From sequence record MN882542: DNA of 64,000 bases; one strand, written 5' to 3'. Origin of the DNA: Escherichia phage JN01. The notes under the pieces are model-generated. The model saw nothing but the letters and a program-made list of their open reading frames with translations. It searched no databases and was not told where the DNA came from. Position 1 is the first letter of the stretch, and each line of letters begins with the position of its first letter. Shown here in pieces: positions 10,875-16,530 of this stretch. The position numbers and the translations under genes are program-made.

Positions 10875-10951
10875 CTCTGTTTAGCTCAGCTTGGTAGAGC
10901 GTTCCGTTTGGGGCGGTAAGGCCGGAGGTTCAAGTCCTCCAACAGAGACCA
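10875..10951 (+). tRNA. tRNA-Pro (anticodon TGG)
   Basis: D-stem GCTC/GAGC, anticodon loop TTTGGGG, T-loop GGTTCAAGTCC, 7 bp acceptor, CCA encoded; hand fold. Confidence 0.7.
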
Positions 10952-10958
10952 AATTAAT

Positions 10959-11036
10959 GTTCCAGTAGACAAAATGGTAAAGTCACCACTCTTTCAAAGT
11001 GGATATTTGAGGGTTCAAATCCCTTCTGGAATGCCA
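10959..11036 (+). tRNA. tRNA-Glu (anticodon TTC)
   Basis: Anticodon stem CCACT/AGTGG, loop CTTTCAA, T-loop GGGTTCAAATCCC, CCA encoded. Confidence 0.65.
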
Positions 11037-11047
11037 GTTTTGACAGA

Positions 11048-11114
11048 AGACCAATTACAGCAAGTTTAATCTTATTCATCTGACACGAAATCGGACAAAG
11101 AAGAGATTTGGTCT
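11048..11114 (+). repeat. R-element copy 1: CAGAAGACC...CAGCAA ... GGTCTGG bounded by a 7 bp stem (AGACCAA/TTGGTCT)
   Basis: One of four copies in the tRNA array; the stem base pairs covary between copies. Confidence 0.5.
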
Positions 11115-11127
11115 GGTCATTAAGAAT

Positions 11128-11204
11128 TGCGGGTATAGAGAAAGGGCGTCTCACATGTCTCATTAGCATGGTATCGGCAGGTTCGACTCCTGCACCCGCC
11201 TCCA
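11128..11204 (+). tRNA. tRNA with CAT anticodon (Met or Ile2)
   Basis: T-stem GCAGG/CCTGC, T-loop TTCGACT, acceptor GCGGGT/ACCCGC, CCA encoded; anticodon loop CTCATTA. Confidence 0.6.
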
Positions 11205-11214
11205 ATTTTGCAGA

Positions 11215-11268
11215 AGACCGTATTCAGCAACAAACTACTTTTTGCGGATAAAAGAAAAAACACGGTCT
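11215..11268 (+). repeat. R-element copy 2 (stem AGACCGT/ACGGTCT)
   Basis: Conserved CAGAAGACCG..TTCAGCAA 5-prime half and ACGGTCTGG 3-prime half. Confidence 0.5.
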
Positions 11269-11281
11269 GGCAATGTATTAA

Positions 11282-11358
11282 GGTTAGGAAGCACATAAGG
11301 TATGTGCGGTCGCCTGTTAAGCGAATGGCACAGGGTTCGAATCCCTGACTAACCGCCA
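11282..11358 (+). tRNA. tRNA-Asn (anticodon GTT)
   Basis: D-stem GCAC/GTGC, anticodon loop CTGTTAA, T-arm CAGGG-TTCGAAT-CCCTG, CCA encoded. Confidence 0.75.
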
Positions 11359-11367
11359 AATTTAAAT

Positions 11368-11455
11368 GTGTCGTTATCCCGTAGATGGTAGCGGTGGGGA
11401 CTGTAAATCCCTTGTCATTGAGACTCGGTAGGTTCGACTCCTACACGGCACACCA
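11368..11455 (+). tRNA. tRNA-Tyr (anticodon GTA), long variable arm
   Basis: 88 nt; anticodon arm GGGGA-CTGTAAA-TCCCT; T-arm GTAGG-TTCGACT-CCTAC; CCA encoded. Confidence 0.75.
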
Positions 11456-11461
11456 AATAAA

Positions 11462-11538
11462 GGTTATGTAGTTTAACTGGTTAAAATACTCCCCTGTCAC
11501 GGGAGATGATGAGGGTTCAAATCCCTTCGTAACCGCCA
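11462..11538 (+). tRNA. tRNA-Asp (anticodon GTC)
   Basis: Anticodon arm CTCCC-CTGTCAC-GGGAG; T-loop GGGTTCAAATCCC; CCA encoded. Confidence 0.75.
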
Positions 11539-11628
11539 AATTATAATAAGTATTTCAAAATGCTGTTTGAGAGGGCTATTTAGCCTCTCCCTTAAAGAGT
11601 TCTTACGAGTATTCTTTAAAGGAGCAGA

Positions 11629-11699
11629 AGACCAAATTCAGCAAGTACGTATGATATTTTCAAGCCAATTTAATTTTGAAAAAATTTAAAACTTGGTCT
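11629..11699 (+). repeat. R-element copy 3 (stem AGACCAA/TTGGTCT)
   Basis: Same conserved ends as copies 1, 2 and 4. Confidence 0.5.
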
Positions 11700-11718
11700 G
11701 GCTCAACAAATTTACAGA

Positions 11719-14373: not shown

Positions 14374-14616
14374 ATGCAAACATTAATCGTCGTTGAACAT
14401 GAAAATTCCAATAGCATTGAGTTTGTAAGGGTTCCCACTATAGATACCCACATTTTCTTGAAAGTAGGCTGGGAATGTGACCCAATAAGAGTAGAAAAAT
14501 TTATTGGTCATTACTTTGGTGGAAGACAACTTAAAAGTGTTAATTTTGAGACAATGTTACCAGAAAACTCAGAAACAAATAATAATGTTTACCTCCTTAC
14601 AAGGATTAGACAATGA
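14374..14616 (+). CDS. hypothetical protein embedded in the tRNA array
   Basis: 80 aa ORF with ATG start and AAGAG upstream. Confidence 0.45.
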   Translation: MQTLIVVEHENSNSIEFVRVPTIDTHIFLKVGWECDPIRVEKFIGHYFGGRQLKSVNFETMLPENSETNNNVYLLTRIRQ

Positions 14617-15170
14617 GATATTTGAAGTATGTTTCATGGATTTTCTTAGCTTTGCTAGAGCCATTTGCAGCAATCTTAGCAGTCATCTTAGCACCTTTTG
14701 TAGTTCTATTCTACAGTGAGAAGAGAGGACACTTACCTTTCGGCTTCAGATGGATGGAAACATATGACAACCCAATTGATGGTGATAAAGGTCATGTCGA
14801 ACGATGGGCTAAGATTAGAAAGATTGGTAAGCTTGGTATCTATATGCAGAGAGTTGGTTGGCTCTGGAGAAACAAAGCTTATAACTTCTCTTACCATGTG
14901 TTAGGAAGAGATGTAAAAGATGTTACTAAGTGGAAAGGTAATATCAATGTAAGTTCTAACCCTGAAGATAATCAGACAGGTTATCTCCTAATGTGGAACA
15001 GTAATGCTTGGGGATTATTCGCTTTTATCCCATCAATTAAACTCTTTGGTAAGCAATTCTACTGGAGAATTTATGTTGGATGGAAACTTAAAAGTGTTGT
15101 TCCAAAAGAAAGAGCATTCTCAAGGGAAAGAGTTATGTTGGCATTCTTTATTCATCCACTGAGAAAGTAA
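14613..15170 (+). CDS. hypothetical membrane protein (Trp-rich) embedded in the tRNA array
   Basis: 185 aa; N-terminal hydrophobic helix WIFLALLEPFAAILAVILAPFVVLF; ATGA overlap with the upstream ORF. Confidence 0.55.
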   Translation: MRYLKYVSWIFLALLEPFAAILAVILAPFVVLFYSEKRGHLPFGFRWMETYDNPIDGDKGHVERWAKIRKIGKLGIYMQRVGWLWRNKAYNFSYHVLGRDVKDVTKWKGNINVSSNPEDNQTGYLLMWNSNAWGLFAFIPSIKLFGKQFYWRIYVGWKLKSVVPKERAFSRERVMLAFFIHPLRK

Positions 15171-15178
15171 AGATTTAA

Positions 15179-15254
15179 AGGGGATTAGTTTACAAGGTTA
15201 AAACCTCGGTCTTTGAAATCGAAGAAGTTGGTTCAATTCCAACATCCCCCGCCA
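15179..15254 (+). tRNA. tRNA-Gln (anticodon TTG)
   Basis: Anticodon arm TCGGT-CTTTGAA-ATCGA; T-arm GTTGG-TTCAATT-CCAAC; CCA encoded. Confidence 0.65.
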
Positions 15255-15256
15255 AT

Positions 15257-15335
15257 GCTCCATTACTCCAATTGGCAGAGAGGCCAGACTTAAAATCTGT
15301 GTTATGTATCGGTTCGAATCCGATATGGAGTACCA
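15257..15335 (+). tRNA. tRNA with TAA anticodon (Leu-decoding), variable loop about 7-8 nt
   Basis: Acceptor GCTCCAT/ATGGAGT; anticodon loop CTTAAAA; T-arm ATCGG-TTCGAAT-CCGAT; A73; CCA encoded. Confidence 0.55.
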
Positions 15336-15340
15336 AATTT

Positions 15341-15416
15341 AGCGGTATAGCATAACTGGTAATGCAGCAGTCTCTGAAGCTGTCTTATTAAGGTTCAAAT
15401 CCTTATGCCGCTGCCA
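15341..15416 (+). tRNA. tRNA-Gln (anticodon CTG)
   Basis: Standard 76 nt geometry; D-stem GCAT/ATGC; anticodon loop CTCTGAA; CCA encoded. Confidence 0.75.
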
Positions 15417-15447
15417 CTTCTAAGGATTCTTACGAGAGCCCTTAAAT

Positions 15448-15523
15448 GTGGCCTTATCATAAATGGTAATGACCCATGCTGTGAACATGGTCTATACGGG
15501 TTCAAATCCCGTAGGTCACCCCA
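15448..15523 (+). tRNA. tRNA-His (anticodon GTG)
   Basis: D-stem TCAT/ATGA; perfect anticodon stem CCATG/CATGG with loop CTGTGAA; CCA encoded. Confidence 0.8.
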
Positions 15524-15529
15524 ATTTAT

Positions 15530-15605
15530 AGTCCAAGTAGCTTATATGGTTAAAGCGCGTGTCTGAAAAACATGAGAAGAGGGTTCAAATCCCACTGGAC
15601 TACCA
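15530..15605 (+). tRNA. tRNA-Phe (anticodon GAA)
   Basis: Anticodon arm CGTGT-CTGAAAA-ACATG; T-loop GGGTTCAAATCCC; CCA encoded. Confidence 0.65.
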
Positions 15606-15621
15606 ATTTCAAAGGTGCTTA

Positions 15622-16356
15622 ATGAAAGAGATGACAGAACAAGGTAAGGAGATTTTTAGTCTCTTAAAAACCGGTAGAGGGTTTTCTAATCCCCTTATTA
15701 CTGGTGCAGCAGTTCTCGGTGGAACCGTAGCTGCCTCTACATCACTTGTAAGCTCTATTAGCTCTGTAGCAGACCCTACAATAAAGGATAAACTTGTTGC
15801 TGCTGGACTTACAACAGTTCTGCTTAATAGCTTTACAACGAGTCTGACAAGCACTACATCAACTACTAAGACACTGACAGATTACGGTCAAAAGTCCATT
15901 GATGAGTTTTCATCACGTATGCAGGTAGCAAAAGGGTATTCCAATGTTATGGGTGCAGCAGGAGAGCAAGTTGGTTGTACACCATTTAGTGGTATTATGG
16001 GTGTTGCTACAGAGTACGGTCAAAAAGCTATTGACACAATTAACAGTACACTAGACGGTGTTAATGATGTATTAAGTGACTTACAAGATGCTATTGATAA
16101 AGGTCTTGATACTGTTTCTGATTTAGCTAACCAAGCTGTTAGCAAGATTAATGAAGGTATCTCGAAGATTACAGCTTATGCAGATGAAGTTGTGCAGATG
16201 ATTGAAGAAGAAGCTGCCCTTATTGCAGAGTACCTTAAAACGAATATCAATGGGTTCTTAGCAGGTATCTTACCAGACTGGTTTGATGATGCTTGTAAAA
16301 CTGGTGTAATTGATACTATTGCAACACCAGAAATGAAGAACGCATTACAGAAATAA
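15622..16356 (+). CDS. hypothetical Ser/Thr-rich protein with N-terminal hydrophobic segment, flanked by tRNAs
   Basis: Track start overlaps tRNA-Phe, so start moved to ATG 15622; stop abuts tRNA-Ser; hydrophobic LITGAAVLGGTVAASTSLV. Confidence 0.5.
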   Translation: MKEMTEQGKEIFSLLKTGRGFSNPLITGAAVLGGTVAASTSLVSSISSVADPTIKDKLVAAGLTTVLLNSFTTSLTSTTSTTKTLTDYGQKSIDEFSSRMQVAKGYSNVMGAAGEQVGCTPFSGIMGVATEYGQKAIDTINSTLDGVNDVLSDLQDAIDKGLDTVSDLANQAVSKINEGISKITAYADEVVQMIEEEAALIAEYLKTNINGFLAGILPDWFDDACKTGVIDTIATPEMKNALQK

Positions 16357-16357
16357 T

Positions 16358-16450
16358 GGAAGATTAACCCTAAAAGGTAAGGGAGCAGTTTGCTAAACTG
16401 CCAGTAGCTGAGAAATCGGTGTACCAGTTCAAGTCTGGTATCTTCCTCCA
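16358..16450 (+). tRNA. tRNA-Ser (anticodon GCT), long variable arm
   Basis: 93 nt; perfect acceptor GGAAGAT/ATCTTCC; anticodon arm GCAGT-TTGCTAA-ACTGC; CCA encoded. Confidence 0.75.
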
Positions 16451-16454
16451 ATTT

Positions 16455-16530
16455 GAATCCGTGACAGAAATGGCTATGTACCTGTCTGCAAAACAGGTTT
16501 ATAAGGGTTCGAGTCCCTTCGGATTCTCCA
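16455..16530 (+). tRNA. tRNA-Cys (anticodon GCA)
   Basis: Perfect acceptor GAATCCG/CGGATTC; perfect anticodon stem CCTGT/ACAGG with loop CTGCAAA; CCA encoded. Confidence 0.8.

What the first reader, a model, noticed from the sequence alone, without database searches (positions are those of the whole stretch)
10875..16530. About 27 tRNA genes covering most amino acids, including two tRNA-Lys
The array appears to supply Pro, Glu, Met/Ile2 (two CAT), Asn, Tyr, Asp, Lys (TTT and CTT), Ile, Ser (two), Ala, Gly, Thr, Val, Arg, Gln (two), His, Phe, Cys and the Leu-type anticodons. Large phage tRNA sets are known to offset codon-usage mismatch and to replace host tRNAs cut by anticodon nucleases such as PrrC, which targets tRNA-Lys. 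Two Lys isoacceptors would fit that role.
Basis: partly seen in the sequence, partly recalled or inferred. Interest (0 to 1): 0.4.

Follow-up and report, generated by a model that had tools for sequence, protein, structure and literature searches.

The report
Known phage tRNA operon, odd extras
This is the already-described tRNA gene cluster of a Felix O1-like phage (25 ordinary tRNAs tuned to the phage's AT-rich codons), but it also hides several conserved, unannotated RNAs (two odd tRNA look-alikes, Y-RNA-like elements next to a Ro60-like protein gene, and a tmRNA-like tag module) that deserve follow-up.

Summary
They cover 19 amino acids (no Trp) and include Lys-UUU and Lys-CUU.

The window is a Felixounavirus, 97.7% identical to Escherichia phage vB_EcoM_D4. 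The same array is annotated in Felix O1 and was analysed for Shigella phage Sf14, so the array itself is already known.

Codon supply explains the set. A-ending codons that the host rarely uses are enriched, and AAG is 2.6 times more frequent than in the E. coli sample. Escape from anticodon nucleases is plausible from the literature, but nothing here supports it specifically. Both Lys anticodon loops are host-identical, and Lys-CUU keeps the exact PARIS cleavage motif.

New observations:
- A tRNA-like RNA without a canonical D-arm, carrying a UCU loop, replaces the canonical tRNA-Arg(UCU). AGA is 20 times over-used.
- A second odd tRNA-like RNA carries the Trp loop.
- Four Y-RNA-like elements lie downstream of it. 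One is a permuted tRNA-like RNA built like YrlA.
- A tmRNA-like tag module (ANDNVFLAVA*) has no recognisable tRNA-like domain.

The parts
9294..10709 (+). Ro60-like protein gene (471 aa; DUF2828 + DUF7788/vWA), ending 165 nt upstream of the first tRNA
10728..10848 (+). Two sigma-70-like promoters ahead of the array (10728-10756 and 10819-10848)
   Evidence: Consensus scan: TTGACA-17-TAATAT and TTGACA-18-TAAAGT with TG, 10 of 12 matches each. These are pattern matches only.
10875..10951 (+). tRNA-Pro (UGG)
   Evidence: ARAGORN; Rfam 57.7 bits.
10959..11036 (+). tRNA-Glu (UUC)
   Evidence: Rfam 58.2 bits.
11041..11119 (+). E1, short Y-RNA-like element: outer helix TGAC/GTCA, bulges AGA and G, inner helix AGACCAA/TTGGTCT, loop motif UUACAGCAA
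   Evidence: One of four copies of the motif, 0.15 expected by chance. Fold. Weak hit of model R1, 21 bits, E 0.078.
11128..11204 (+). Atypical tRNA (CAU) number 1: U1xC72 mismatch, acceptor stem like the E. coli initiator (G2-C71 to G6-C67), U37, discriminator U
   Evidence: ARAGORN; below Rfam gathering score; 65% identity to E. coli fMet against 58% to elongator Met. The same loop CTCATTA occurs in Sf14 (PMC12482277).
11208..11273 (+). E2, short Y-RNA-like element (TTGC/GCAA; AGACCGT/ACGGTCT)
11282..11358 (+). tRNA-Asn (GUU)
   Evidence: 48 bits.
11368..11455 (+). tRNA-Tyr (GUA), class II with long variable arm
   Evidence: Rfam clan hit 29.6 bits.
11462..11538 (+). tRNA-Asp (GUC)
   Evidence: 66 bits.
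11622..11704 (+). E3, short Y-RNA-like element (GAGC/GCTC; AGACCAA/TTGGTCT)
11712..11849 (+). E4, long Y-RNA-like element with YrlA architecture. It has the terminal bulged helix and the CAGCAA motif. Its permuted tRNA-like domain has a T-arm (11771-11787), a closed 7-bp acceptor-like hairpin (11788-11805) and a D-arm-like hairpin (11807-11823).
   Evidence: Model R1 was built from 14 non-Felixounavirus sequences. It hits 11717-11849 at 61.5 bits, E 8e-10, full length. Covariation of the family structure. Fold.
11996..12071 (+). tRNA-Lys (UUU)
   Evidence: 54.4 bits; anticodon arm GCAGA-CTTTTAA-TCTGA.
12076..12152 (+). tRNA (CAU) number 2; elongator Met or Ile2 not decided
   Evidence: 53.7 bits; G1-C72 paired, loop TTCATAA.
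12154..12229 (+). tRNA-Ile (GAU)
   Evidence: 63.4 bits.
12245..12273 (+). Strong sigma-70-like promoter (TTGACA-17-TATAGT, 11 of 12) driving the tmRNA-like block
   Evidence: Equivalent promoters precede the block in KP591P3, C1 and SunLIRen.
12368..12526 (+). tmRNA-like module with tag frame 12413-12445, GCA AAC GAC AAT GTT TTT CTG GCA GTA GCT TGA = ANDNVFLAVA*. The stop codons lie in a hairpin like tmRNA helix 5, and two further hairpins follow.
   Evidence: Alignment with five other phage families. Structure 95.1% paired against 33-47% when slid, with 11 pairs changed on both sides. Rfam tmRNA only 11.9 bits and tmRNA_permuted 23.6 bits. ARAGORN finds no tmRNA.
12597..12678 (+). tRNA-like RNA without a canonical D-arm, with anticodon loop CUUCUAA (UCU, Arg) and encoded CCA. 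It occupies the slot of the canonical tRNA-Arg(UCU).
   Evidence: Rfam tRNA 31.7 bits. Allelic with the canonical Arg-tct of L003 and L006. Nine homologues from six phage groups: 99.3% of cells paired, 10 of 17 pairs changed on both sides. Present in arrays that lack a canonical Arg-UCU.
12694..13041 (+). Free-standing HNH homing endonuclease gene, inserted immediately after the CCA of the odd Arg-like RNA
   Evidence: PHROG 2255, 1.3e-42. Precise insertion present only in the window and D4. The same tRNA-like-plus-HNH pairing occurs in Klebsiella phage Roth49.
13180..13261 (+). Non-canonical tRNA-like RNA with loop CCUCCAAAA, which contains the tRNA-Trp loop CUCCAAA. It has a 12-bp acceptor/T stack, discriminator G and CCA.
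   Evidence: ARAGORN relaxed and mitochondrial modes, 'mtRNA-Trp (cca)'. The stem AACGG/CCGTT becomes GTAAG/CTTAC in Henu12 and Mooglevirus KMM2, which is four compensatory pairs.
13275..13364 (+). tRNA-Ser (UGA), class II; the only tRNA without an encoded CCA (it has CCT)
   Evidence: (33.2 bits).
13620..13696 (+). tRNA-Leu (UAG), class I length (77 nt)
   Evidence: (57.3 bits).
13704..13779 (+). tRNA-Lys (CUU), paralogue of Lys-UUU (82% identity); E. coli has no counterpart
   Evidence: (56.9 bits).
13786..13861 (+). tRNA-Ala (UGC)
   Evidence: 62.7 bits.
13868..13942 (+). tRNA-Gly (UCC)
   Evidence: 59.6 bits.
13950..14025 (+). tRNA-Thr (UGU)
   Evidence: 58.4 bits.
14121..14195 (+). tRNA-Val (UAC)
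   Evidence: 57.2 bits.
14197..14274 (+). tRNA-Leu (CAA), class I length (78 nt)
   Evidence: (43.6 bits).
14280..14355 (+). tRNA-Arg (ACG)
   Evidence: 59.8 bits.
14374..15170 (+). Two conserved small ORFs inside the array (80 aa, PHROG 14202; 185 aa, DUF7338)
15179..15254 (+). tRNA-Gln (UUG)
   Evidence: 56.6 bits.
15257..15335 (+). tRNA-Leu (UAA), class I length (79 nt)
   Evidence: (47.5 bits).
15341..15416 (+). tRNA-Gln (CUG)
   Evidence: 61.2 bits.
15448..15523 (+). tRNA-His (GUG); base -1 is T, so no encoded G-1
   Evidence: (53.3 bits).
15530..15605 (+). tRNA-Phe (GAA)
   Evidence: 45 bits.
15622..16356 (+). Conserved ORF inside the array (244 aa, DUF7217)
16358..16450 (+). tRNA-Ser (GCU), class II
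   Evidence: 46.2 bits.
16455..16530 (+). tRNA-Cys (GCA)
   Evidence: 56.6 bits.
16571..16720 (+). Terminator-like hairpins after the last tRNA (GCCCTG...CAGGGC + T6 at 16571-16630; GACGGTC...GACCGTC + T6 at 16695-16718)
   Evidence: Sequence read directly; the scan found the second one.

Best explanation
The region is the tRNA operon of a Felix O1-like (Felixounavirus) myovirus.

Twenty-five canonical tRNA genes lie on one strand in five blocks. They are most likely transcribed from sigma-70-type promoters at about 10730, 10820 and 12245 as polycistronic precursors, then cut out by host processing enzymes. Nearly all already carry their CCA end.

The set is a near-minimal complete decoder. 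It has one U34 tRNA for each four-codon box, one tRNA for each two-codon set, and extra C34 tRNAs for AAG, CAG and UUG.

Its main job is to supply decoding capacity matched to the phage's AT-rich codon usage. That means A-ending codons the host reads with rare tRNAs, AAG for which E. coli has no cognate C34 tRNA, and above all AGA. This keeps phage translation, especially of late structural genes, largely independent of the host tRNA pool.

Two conserved non-canonical tRNA-like RNAs carry exactly the two missing anticodon loops, UCU for AGA/AGG and CCA for Trp. They probably complete the set. This step is inferred, not shown.

The operon is headed by a Ro60-like protein gene and contains four Y-RNA-like elements. 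These probably form an RNP acting on structured RNA or tRNA. That too is inferred.
For: - Identity and synteny. The region is 97.7% identical to phage D4 and 94.8% to Felix O1, with the same tRNA order. The Sf14 paper lists the same order and anticodon loops (PMC12482277).
- Canonical tRNAs are confirmed.
- Promoter and terminator patterns are present.
- Codon demand, as phage/host frequency ratios: AGA 19.6, AGG 8.4, ACA 5.0, TCA 4.2, CTA 2.9, AAG 2.6, TTA 2.3, CCA 2.2, CAA 1.9. All except AGA and AGG have a Watson-Crick-matching canonical phage tRNA.
- Codons cognate by Watson-Crick pairing have mean log2 RSCU ratio +0.33 against -0.28 for the rest (p 0.06; 0.023 with AGA).
- AGA reaches 26.4 per 1000 and 59% of Arg codons in the structural block 16977-40020, against 11.3 per 1000 elsewhere.
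- Odd Arg-like RNA. It occupies the same slot as the canonical tRNA-Arg(tct) and the two are mutually exclusive across the window and seven related Felixounavirus loci. Seu621 and EC.P2 carry it in arrays with no canonical Arg-UCU. Its acceptor and anticodon stems covary strongly while the loop CUUCUAA is invariant.
- Odd Trp-like RNA. Its anticodon stem shows four compensatory pairs and its loop is invariant.
- Ro60-like fold.
- Y-like RNA family.
Against: - The codon correlation is modest. Several tRNAs read codons the phage does not over-use: CAG 0.59, CGT 0.48, ATC 0.59, AGC 0.48.
- The most used Gly codon, GGT, and all NNT or NNC codons of four-codon boxes are covered only if U34 reads them. 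That depends on modifications not visible in DNA.
- The host comparison rests on 44 E. coli K-12 genes (16,814 codons), not the whole genome or the true host.
- Nothing shows that the odd RNAs are aminoacylated. The major E. coli ArgRS identity element A20 lies in the D-loop, which the odd Arg-like RNA lacks (my own knowledge).
- In the window the odd Trp-like RNA has a U-U mismatch in its T stem, where relatives have G-U.
- The Ro60 relationship is detectable only at the fold level. A sequence profile finds no PDB Ro60.
Confidence: 0.8

Rival explanations
1. Counter-defence is the main function. The phage tRNAs, especially the two Lys species along with Thr, Asn and Tyr, exist to replace host tRNAs destroyed by anticodon nucleases (PrrC, RloC, PARIS AriB, retron-Eco7 PtuAB). 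They would be shaped to resist those nucleases.
For: - Experiments with other phages. T5 tRNA-Lys, Thr and Asn neutralise PARIS (PMC11464382, PMC12409363). Phage tRNA-Lys rescues infection from PrrC170, and T5 tRNA-Tyr rescues it from retron-Eco7 (PMC11555353).
- The array encodes every one of those isoacceptors.
- Phage Thr-UGU and Asn-GUU have G at position 39, where U39A abolishes AriB cleavage of tRNA-Lys. Lys-UUU has U at position 41, where A41C inhibits cleavage (PMC12409363).
Against: - The anticodon loops of Lys, Tyr, Thr, Asp, Gly and Val are identical to the host's.
- Lys-CUU keeps the exact AriB motif UAAUCA, and Lys-UUU keeps U39 and C40.
- Stem differences are expected for any tRNA only 59-72% identical to its host cognate, so they are not specific evidence.
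- A near-complete 19-20 amino-acid set is far more than any known nuclease would select for.
- The analysis of the syntenic Sf14 array rejected this hypothesis (PMC12482277).
- AAG over-use explains Lys-CUU.
Confidence: 0.25
2. The odd tRNA-like RNAs at 12597-12678 and 13180-13261 are not decoders. They would be decayed tRNA genes, scars or immunity alleles left by homing endonucleases, or tRNA mimics such as decoys or regulators.
For: - Neither is accepted by ARAGORN at default settings.
- The Arg-like RNA lacks a canonical D-arm, and the Trp-like RNA has a 9-nt loop or a C-A closing pair and an irregular D region.
- An HNH gene abuts the Arg-like RNA here, in Felix O1 and in Roth49.
- Single-sequence folding energies are no better than shuffles, with z scores 0.04 and -0.49.
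- The window copy of the Trp-like RNA has a T-stem mismatch.
Against: - Pseudogenes do not keep stems by compensatory change. The Arg-like RNA shows 10 of 17 pairs changed on both sides across six phage groups, with an invariant loop and invariant single-stranded segments. The Trp-like RNA shows four compensatory pairs.
- Both keep an encoded CCA.
- The Arg-like RNA is found where a canonical Arg-UCU is missing even though AGA is the most over-used codon.
- A decoy or regulatory role is not excluded by any of this.
Confidence: 0.3
3. E1-E4 are not Y-RNA-like partners of the Ro60-like protein. They would be RNase processing sites, attenuators, or remnants of decayed tRNA genes in the spacers.
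For: - They sit in inter-tRNA spacers.
- Their single-sequence folding z-scores are weak, -1.3 to -2.2.
- The conserved loop motif is CAGCAA, not the CGAA motif of described Y RNAs (PMC4201824, PMC12135203).
- Rfam YrlA does not hit the window elements.
- No binding data exist.
Against: - A model built only from RNAs next to distant DUF2828 genes finds E4 at E 8e-10, full length.
- The family structure covaries in all five helices: 83.8% of cells paired against 37-45% when slid.
- All 32 significant hits across 82 loci lie on the strand of the Ro60-like gene, and many directly flank it.
- Rfam YrlA gives E 4e-5 to 2e-4 on family members in other loci.
- The bulged outer and inner helices covary between the four copies and in the short forms of L008, L080, L074, L040 and L041.
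Confidence: 0.2

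Closest known systems
tRNA cluster of Salmonella phage Felix O1 and other Ounavirinae (for example Shigella phage Sf14, Mooglevirus)
   Same: The gene order and anticodons are the same: Pro-Glu-Met-Asn-Tyr-Asp-Lys-Met-Ile-(Arg)-Ser-Leu-Lys-Ala-Gly-Thr-Val-Leu-Arg-Gln-Leu-Gln-His-Phe-Ser-Cys. DNA identity is 95-98%. Trp is absent, Lys-CUU is present, and HNH genes are interspersed.
   Different: This phage, like Felix O1, D4, L004, L005 and L007, carries the tRNA-like RNA without a canonical D-arm instead of the canonical tRNA-Arg(UCU) found in Sf14, L003 and L006. Published annotations do not list the odd Arg-like and Trp-like RNAs as such, nor E1-E4, nor the tmRNA-like module.
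Phage T5 tRNA-rich region
   Same: It is a large tRNA array with free-standing HNH endonuclease genes. It contains Lys, Thr, Asn and Tyr tRNAs that are known to counter PARIS and retron-Eco7 (PMC12409363, PMC11555353).
   Different: T5 tRNA-Lys carries U39A and A41C at the AriB site. Here Lys-UUU has only A41U and Lys-CUU is host-like. No phenotype is known for this phage.
Ro60-Y RNA ribonucleoproteins (Deinococcus Rsr-Yrn1, Salmonella Rsr-YrlA/YrlB, mycobacteriophage and Thermus phage phiLo Ro60 with Yrl RNAs)
   Different: The protein matches no TROVE sequence model; it hits DUF2828 and DUF7788 instead. The loop motif is UU(U/A)C(A/C)GCAA rather than GNCGAA or CGAA. Rfam YrlA scores stay below the gathering threshold. 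The system is embedded in, or adjacent to, large tRNA arrays.
tmRNA (ssrA)
   Same: An A-rich leader precedes a GCA resume codon. A ten-codon tag ends in LAVA or LMAA, comparable with E. coli ANDENYALAA. The stop codons lie in the loop of a hairpin like tmRNA helix 5, and the structure covaries.
   Different: No tRNA-like domain formed by the 5' and 3' ends could be found. The module is only about 160 nt. It is not detected by ARAGORN, and Rfam tmRNA scores only 11.9 bits, far below the gathering score.
D-arm-lacking mitochondrial tRNAs of metazoa
   Same: The acceptor stem, anticodon arm and T-arm are retained without a canonical D-arm.
   Different: This RNA occurs in phages of Enterobacteria, where all known tRNAs are said to be canonical cloverleaves (PMC11551756). 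It has a long, invariant 23-nt segment between the anticodon arm and the T-arm.

Membership tests
Felixounavirus / Ounavirinae tRNA gene cluster | Canonical cloverleaf tRNA genes detected by two independent methods | tested here: met
   ARAGORN finds 25. The Rfam tRNA model finds 23 of them at or above the gathering score.
Felixounavirus / Ounavirinae tRNA gene cluster | Sequence identity and conserved gene order with Felix O1 and its relatives | tested here: met
   97.7% identity to D4 and 94.8% to Felix O1 over 6.5 kb. The tRNA order is the same in L001-L007 and in the Sf14 table.
Nuclease-evading phage tRNAs (PARIS, PrrC or retron-Eco7 counter-defence) | Encodes the isoacceptors that the nucleases target (Lys-UUU, Thr-UGU, Asn-GUU, Tyr-GUA) | tested here: met
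   All four are present.
Nuclease-evading phage tRNAs (PARIS, PrrC or retron-Eco7 counter-defence) | Substitutions at the nuclease determinants (AriB: U39 and A41 of U36AAUC|A41) | tested here: inconclusive
   Lys-UUU reads UAAUCU (A41U only). Lys-CUU reads UAAUCA (host-identical). Thr reads UAAGCA and Asn UAAGCG (U39G). Source: with PMC12409363.
Nuclease-evading phage tRNAs (PARIS, PrrC or retron-Eco7 counter-defence) | Anticodon-loop mutations relative to the host cognate in the targeted tRNAs | tested here: not met
   The Lys, Tyr and Thr loops are identical to those of E. coli. The Asn loop CTGTTAA equals the host loop listed for Shigella in PMC12482277.
Nuclease-evading phage tRNAs (PARIS, PrrC or retron-Eco7 counter-defence) | Protection phenotype on defence-carrying hosts | not testable with these tools
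   This needs plating assays.
Ro60 (TROVE + vWA) proteins | Ring of helical repeats followed by a vWA domain, superposable on solved Ro60 structures | tested here: met
Ro60 (TROVE + vWA) proteins | MIDAS motif (DxSxS...T...D) in the vWA domain | tested here: met
   D279, S281, S283, T349 and D381 are invariant in 38 homologues.
Ro60 (TROVE + vWA) proteins | Match to the TROVE sequence family (Pfam PF05731) or to Ro60 sequences | tested here: not met
   Pfam gives only DUF2828, DUF7788 and VWA_2. Neither phmmer nor a profile against PDB sequences finds Ro60.
Ro60 (TROVE + vWA) proteins | Binds Y RNA or misfolded RNA | not testable with these tools
   This needs biochemistry.
YrlA-type Y RNA | Encoded within 4 kb of the Ro60 gene on the same strand (PMC4201824) | tested here: met
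   E1-E4 lie 330-1140 nt downstream on the + strand. All 32 R1 hits in 82 loci are on the strand of the gene.
YrlA-type Y RNA | tRNA-like domain with a T-arm, a closed acceptor-like stem and a D-arm, set on a terminal 5'/3' helix | tested here: met
   Covariation in all five helices. E4 aligns full length to the model.
YrlA-type Y RNA | Conserved GNCGAA(N)G / CGAA motif in the internal loop | tested here: not met
   The family has UU(U/A)C(A/C)GCAA instead.
YrlA-type Y RNA | Reaches the Rfam RF02553 gathering score (69 bits) | tested here: not met
   There is no hit on E4. Family members in other loci score 24.7-39.2 bits, with best E 4e-5.
tmRNA | Tag reading frame with an Ala resume codon and a hydrophobic ssrA-like C-terminus, conserved at the peptide level | tested here: met
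   ANDNVFLAVA*, ANDNTFLAVA*, ANEEMYLAVA*, ANDDVVLMAA* and ANDAQFLAVA* in six phages.
tmRNA | tRNA-like domain (acceptor stem with G3-U70, T-arm, CCA) formed by the 5' and 3' ends | tested here: not met
   None was found around the block in the window, Vi01, S5 or C1. ARAGORN in tmRNA mode is negative.
Canonical elongator tRNA (applied to 12597-12678 and 13180-13261) | Four-arm cloverleaf with a D-stem and a 7-nt anticodon loop | tested here: not met
   The Arg-like RNA has 7 unpaired nucleotides in place of the D-arm. The Trp-like RNA has a 9-nt loop or a C-A closing pair and an irregular D region.
Canonical elongator tRNA (applied to 12597-12678 and 13180-13261) | Aminoacylation and use on the ribosome | not testable with these tools
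   This needs charged-tRNA assays.

The most novel reading that the evidence does not exclude
The Felix O1-type tRNA operon may be more than a list of tRNAs. It may be an RNA toolkit containing at least three conserved RNA classes that are not annotated in public phage records. None of them was found in the Rfam 15 library or in the papers searched here.

1. A tRNA-like RNA without a canonical D-arm with an invariant Arg(UCU) anticodon loop. It substitutes for the canonical tRNA-Arg(UCU) in Ounavirinae, Vequintavirinae, Stephanstirmvirinae, Straboviridae, T5-like and jumbo phages. A second odd tRNA-like RNA carries the Trp loop. If these decode, they would be non-cloverleaf tRNAs working on bacterial ribosomes, and they would make the phage set complete for all 20 amino acids.

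2. A divergent Ro60-like protein family (DUF2828/DUF7788) with its own Y-RNA-like partners, in long permuted-tRNA forms and short forms. It is recurrently linked to phage tRNA arrays and tmRNA genes.

3. A roughly 160-nt module encoding an ssrA-like tag without a tRNA-like domain, shared by at least six phage families.
Probability: 0.55. Interest if true: 0.75.

Novelty: already known. Interest (0 to 1): 0.4.

Why it matters
Felix O1-type tRNA clusters are annotated, and a syntenic one has been analysed in print.

The details matter for three reasons.
- They bear on the current debate over why phages carry tRNAs. In this family the data favour codon supply and self-sufficiency over nuclease escape. 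The largest codon mismatch, AGA, is served not by a normal tRNA but by a conserved RNA that lacks a canonical D-arm.
- If that RNA and the Trp-like RNA are charged and used, they break the rule that bacterial translation uses only cloverleaf tRNAs.
- A Ro60-like protein with Y-RNA-like partners heads tRNA arrays in many unrelated phages. This suggests a dedicated RNA quality-control or repair module for phage tRNAs and gives a tractable E. coli and Salmonella system in which to study Ro60 function.

Tried and rejected
- Sequence searches of the 471-aa protein against PDB sequences found nothing, with either a single sequence or a 38-sequence profile. NCBIfam also found nothing. Only fold comparison revealed Ro60.
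- Rfam at gathering thresholds found only tRNAs in the window and in eight related loci. The single YrlA hit in the window (15469-15591, 17.3 bits) is an artefact of two adjacent tRNAs. The lower R1 hits at 15277, 13874 and 12089 are the same kind of artefact.
- I first read E1-E4 as possible decayed tRNAs, because their length and 7-bp terminal stem fit. I rejected this because they have no CCA, no internal arms in E1-E3, and conserved bulges and a loop motif shared with elements next to distant DUF2828 genes.
- I considered that the odd Arg-like RNA might be the tRNA-like domain of the adjacent tmRNA-like module, since G3-U70 and A73 are present in the window copy. I did not adopt this. G3-U70 is absent in EC.P2, LPML1 and POP12. 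The slot holds a normal tRNA-Arg in L003 and L006. The two modules also occur separately in other phages.
- I could not decide whether either CAU tRNA is initiator, elongator Met or Ile2. Identities to the three E. coli species are all 53-65%, and no isotype-specific models were available.
- A search for a full tmRNA in Vi01 around the tag module found only further long odd tRNA-like RNAs.
- Literature searches for DUF2828 linked to Ro60, and for phage tRNAs lacking a D-arm, returned nothing relevant.

Full report
**1. Observation.**
ARAGORN finds 25 tRNA genes in the 64-kb window. All are on the + strand, the first starts at 10875 and the last ends at 16530.

Rfam's tRNA covariance model confirms 23 of the 25 at 33-66 bits (gathering score 29). 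It also adds a 31.7-bit tRNA-like hit at 12597-12675. The two it does not report are the first CAU tRNA (11128) and Tyr. Tyr is taken by the related tRNA-Sec model in clan competition.

At relaxed thresholds ARAGORN adds a tRNA-like RNA at about 13174-13261. In mitochondrial mode it calls this 'Trp (cca)'. So 'about 27' means 25 canonical genes plus 2 non-canonical ones.

The canonical set covers 19 amino acids; Trp is missing. Twenty-four of the 25 genes encode CCA, and Ser-UGA has CCT.

**2. What the locus is.**
The 6.5-kb region is 97.7% identical to Escherichia phage vB_EcoM_D4 and 94.8% to Salmonella phage Felix O1. It matches 370 phage records, mostly Felixounavirus. Public annotations show the same array between an 'RNA-binding protein' gene and the large terminase gene. 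ARAGORN gives the same order in seven related loci.

A 2025 paper on Shigella phage Sf14 (Mooglevirus, same subfamily) tabulates the same order and anticodon loops: 26 tRNAs, 19 amino acids and a Lys-CTT with no host counterpart (PMC12482277). The array is therefore already known.

The array is broken into blocks by several inserts:
- a free-standing HNH homing endonuclease gene (12694-13041), a precise insertion present only here and in D4;
- three conserved small ORFs: PHROG 14202, DUF7338 and DUF7217.

Sigma-70-like promoters precede the array (10728 and 10819) and one lies inside it (12245, 11 of 12 matches). Terminator-like hairpins follow the last tRNA. These are pattern matches only.

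**3. Why the phage has the tRNAs.**
I compared codon usage in 66 long ORFs of the window (16,977 codons) with 44 annotated E. coli K-12 genes (16,814 codons).

The phage is AT-rich (GC 0.35-0.44) and prefers A- or T-ending codons. The largest phage/host ratios are:

| Codon | Ratio |
|---|---|
| AGA | 19.6 |
| AGG | 8.4 |
| ACA | 5.0 |
| TCA | 4.2 |
| CTA | 2.9 |
| AAG | 2.6 |
| TTA | 2.3 |
| CCA | 2.2 |

Except for AGA and AGG, each has a Watson-Crick-matching canonical phage tRNA. Cognate codons have a higher RSCU ratio than the rest (+0.33 against -0.28 log2; p 0.06, or 0.023 with AGA).

The set is also close to a minimal complete decoder. It has one U34 tRNA per four-codon box. It includes tRNAs for codons that are not over-used (CAG, CGT, ATC). 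This fits the self-sufficiency reading favoured for Sf14.

AGA is concentrated in the structural gene block: 26.4 per 1000 codons and 59% of Arg codons, against 11.3 per 1000 elsewhere.

**4. The two Lys tRNAs and anticodon nucleases.**
The two Lys genes are 82% identical paralogues. E. coli has only Lys-UUU, so AAG over-use alone accounts for Lys-CUU.

The phage tRNAs are 59-72% identical to their E. coli cognates. The Lys, Tyr, Thr, Asp, Gly and Val anticodon loops are identical to the host's.

PARIS AriB cuts U36AAUC|A41 of E. coli Lys-UUU, and also cuts Thr-UGU and Asn-GUU. T5 escapes through U39A and A41C (PMC12409363). The phage tRNAs here read as follows at that site:

| tRNA | Sequence at U36-N41 | Change from host |
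|---|---|---|
| Lys-UUU | UAAUCU | A41U only |
| Lys-CUU | UAAUCA | none |
| Thr-UGU | UAAGCA | U39G |
| Asn-GUU | UAAGCG | U39G |

Phage tRNA-Lys can rescue infection from PrrC170 (PMC11555353). A counter-defence benefit is therefore possible, but nothing in the sequence points to it specifically.

**5. Non-canonical tRNA-like RNAs.**

*(a) 12597-12678, the Arg-like RNA.* It has a 7-bp acceptor stem, seven unpaired nucleotides (UAUCUCA) where the D-arm should be, and a 5-bp stem with loop CUUCUAA (anticodon UCU). A 23-nt segment follows, then a normal T-arm, discriminator A and CCA.

In an alignment of close relatives it occupies exactly the slot that holds a canonical tRNA-Arg(tct) in L003 and L006. 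L004 shows a compensatory GCTGT/ACAGC stem.

BLAST finds it at 83-90% identity in several unrelated groups, mostly unannotated or labelled 'tRNA-OTHER' or 'tRNA-TERM':
- jumbo phages (7t3, Turkey3);
- Vequintavirinae (Seu621);
- Stephanstirmvirinae (EC.P2);
- a Straboviridae phage (POP12);
- a T5-like phage (Roth49, again followed by an HNH gene);
- another Ounavirinae record.

Across nine sequences 99.3% of cells pair and 10 of 17 pairs change on both sides. The slid controls pair at 39-64%. The loop and both single-stranded segments are invariant.

The Seu621 array (25 tRNAs) and the EC.P2 array (16 tRNAs) contain it but no canonical Arg-UCU. Since AGA is the most over-used codon, the simplest reading is that this RNA is the AGA/AGG decoder. 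That is an inference. A decoy or regulator is not excluded.

*(b) 13180-13261, the Trp-like RNA.* It has a 12-bp acceptor/T stack, discriminator G and CCA. Its stem AACGG/CCGTT closes the loop CCUCCAAAA, which contains CUCCAAA, the loop of E. coli tRNA-Trp.

In Henu12 and the Mooglevirus KMM2 the stem is GTAAG/CTTAC, four compensatory pairs, and the loop is unchanged. The window copy has a U-U where relatives have G-U in the T stem.

The two odd RNAs thus carry exactly the two anticodons missing from the canonical set.

**6. A Ro60-like protein and Y-RNA-like RNAs.**

*Linkage to tRNA arrays.* Distant homologues (39-48% identity) were fetched from 80 viral contigs, and 45 loci were scanned. 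Twenty-one, including 14 of the 38 that are not Felixounavirus, have at least five tRNA genes within 10 kb. Four others have a tmRNA.

*The four elements in the window.* Downstream of the gene, four elements share CAGAAGACCnnnnnCAGCAA (4 copies against 0.15 expected). Each pairs with a downstream GGTCTGG.

Each folds the same way:
- an outer 4-bp helix;
- bulges AGA and G;
- an inner 7-8-bp helix;
- a loop carrying UUACAGCAA.

Both helices covary between copies. E4 (11712-11849) additionally contains a T-arm, a closed 7-bp acceptor-like hairpin and a D-arm-like hairpin. This is a circularly permuted tRNA-like domain, which is the YrlA architecture (PMC4201824).

*The family in other phages.* Orphan T-arms followed by a closed hairpin and a D-arm lie next to the Ro60-like gene in many of the distant loci.

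I aligned 14 of them, none from Felixounavirus. The five-helix structure pairs in 83.8% of cells, against 37-45% when slid. Twenty-seven of 30 pairs change on both sides.

A covariance model built from that alignment finds E4 at 61.5 bits, E 8e-10, full length. It finds E1 weakly. Across 82 loci it gives 32 hits at E <= 1e-3 in 25 loci, all on the strand of the gene.

Rfam YrlA scores 24.7-39.2 bits on members in other loci (best E 4e-5). That is below its gathering score of 69, and it does not hit E4.

Short forms with the same helix and motif design occur in L008, L080, L074, L040 and L041.

*What is known and what differs.* Phage Ro60 with Y-like RNAs is known for mycobacteriophages, CcrColossus, Bacillus phage G and phiLo (PMC12135203). 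I found no paper linking DUF2828 proteins to Ro60. The loop motif (CAGCAA or CCGCAA) differs from the CGAA motif of described Y RNAs. I treat this as a divergent Ro60/Y-RNA system. Binding and function are inferred, not shown.

**7. A tmRNA-like module.**
The strong promoter at 12245 is followed by a block (12368-12526) that is 70-80% identical in several unrelated groups, unannotated in all of them:
- Ackermannviridae (Vi01);
- Schitoviridae (S5);
- Deseoctovirus C1;
- Klebsiella phage KP591P3;
- Erwinia Kolesnikvirus SunLIRen.

It contains an A-rich run, then GCA AAC GAC ... encoding ANDNVFLAVA*. The variants are ANDNTFLAVA*, ANEEMYLAVA*, ANDDVVLMAA* and ANDAQFLAVA*. All are ten codons and ssrA-like.

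The stop codons lie in the loop of a hairpin, and two more hairpins follow. Pairing is 95.1% against 33-47% when slid, with 11 pairs changed on both sides.

I could not find a tRNA-like domain for it. Its mode of action is unexplained.

**8. Verdict.**

Codon offset is supported. The argument that two Lys tRNAs imply an anti-PrrC role is not.

The tRNA array is already known. What is not in the annotations or the literature I could search are the odd Arg-like and Trp-like RNAs, the Ro60-like/Y-RNA-like module and the tmRNA-like tag module. All are supported here by comparative sequence evidence, but none has been tested functionally.

Noticed in passing
window 12368-12526 (tag frame 12413-12445); promoter 12245-12273: A conserved tmRNA-like module encodes ANDNVFLAVA*. 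It is shared with Ackermannviridae, Schitoviridae, Deseoctovirus, Klebsiella and Erwinia phages and is unannotated in all of them. Its hairpins covary, but no tRNA-like domain was found.
   Followed up: partly
window 13620-13696, 14197-14274, 15257-15335: All three 'Leu' tRNAs (UAG, CAA, UAA) are 77-79 nt and lack the long variable arm of bacterial class II tRNA-Leu (E. coli 85-87 nt). Tyr and both Ser keep theirs. Their amino-acid identity is therefore inferred from the anticodon only.
   Followed up: no
window 11128-11204: The first CAU tRNA has a U1xC72 mismatch, an acceptor stem nearly identical to that of the E. coli initiator, U at position 37 and three nucleotides before the D stem. It falls below the Rfam threshold but is conserved in Felix O1 and Sf14. 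It may be initiator-like or non-standard.
   Followed up: partly
window 15447-15523 and 13275-13367: tRNA-His has T at position -1, so it has no encoded G-1 opposite C73. tRNA-Ser(UGA) is the only tRNA without an encoded CCA (it has CCT).
   Followed up: no
window 13042-13179: A 140-nt noncoding stretch between the HNH gene and the odd Trp-like RNA is almost invariant across Felixounavirus, Mooglevirus and Suspvirus, and part of it also occurs in Erwinia SunLIRen (GGAGGTGGTCTGTATCTC...). It may be another structured RNA.
   Followed up: no
L103 503-640, L104 499-640, L101 395-565, L097 ~281-424 and ~900-1025: Long (125-170 nt) tRNA-like RNAs have an acceptor stem, T-arm and often CCA, with large internal insertions. 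Several share the motif (C)GAGUAAG about 50 nt before the T-arm, as does the odd Arg-like RNA. This suggests a wider class of unannotated non-canonical tRNA-like RNAs in phage tRNA regions.
   Followed up: no
L031 15822-16176, L032 16119-16479, L035 16694-17067, L051 18753-19121: Standard one-piece tmRNA genes lie 5-8 kb downstream of the Ro60-like gene in four unrelated viral contigs. Three of their tags end in ...LAVA* or ...VALA*; the L051 tag is AKEEVVFA*.
   Followed up: no
window 12694-13041; L002 3207-3692 and 5490-5903; L089 498-889: HNH homing endonuclease genes are inserted at different inter-tRNA positions in different relatives (one here, three in Felix O1). Here and in Roth49 the HNH gene directly follows the odd Arg-like RNA, so the two may move together.
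   Followed up: partly
window 16977-40020 versus the rest: AGA makes up 59% of Arg codons (26.4 per 1000) in the structural gene block but 30% (11.3 per 1000) elsewhere. Late genes therefore depend most on a UCU decoder.
   Followed up: yes
L019 15696-15922: A group I intron (Rfam 71.5 bits) lies about 4 kb downstream of the Ro60-like gene in an unrelated viral contig.
   Followed up: no
window 14374-15170 and 15622-16356: Three conserved protein genes of unknown function sit inside the tRNA array (PHROG 14202, DUF7338, DUF7217). The DUF7338 protein looks membrane-associated from its hydrophobic N-terminus.
   Followed up: no
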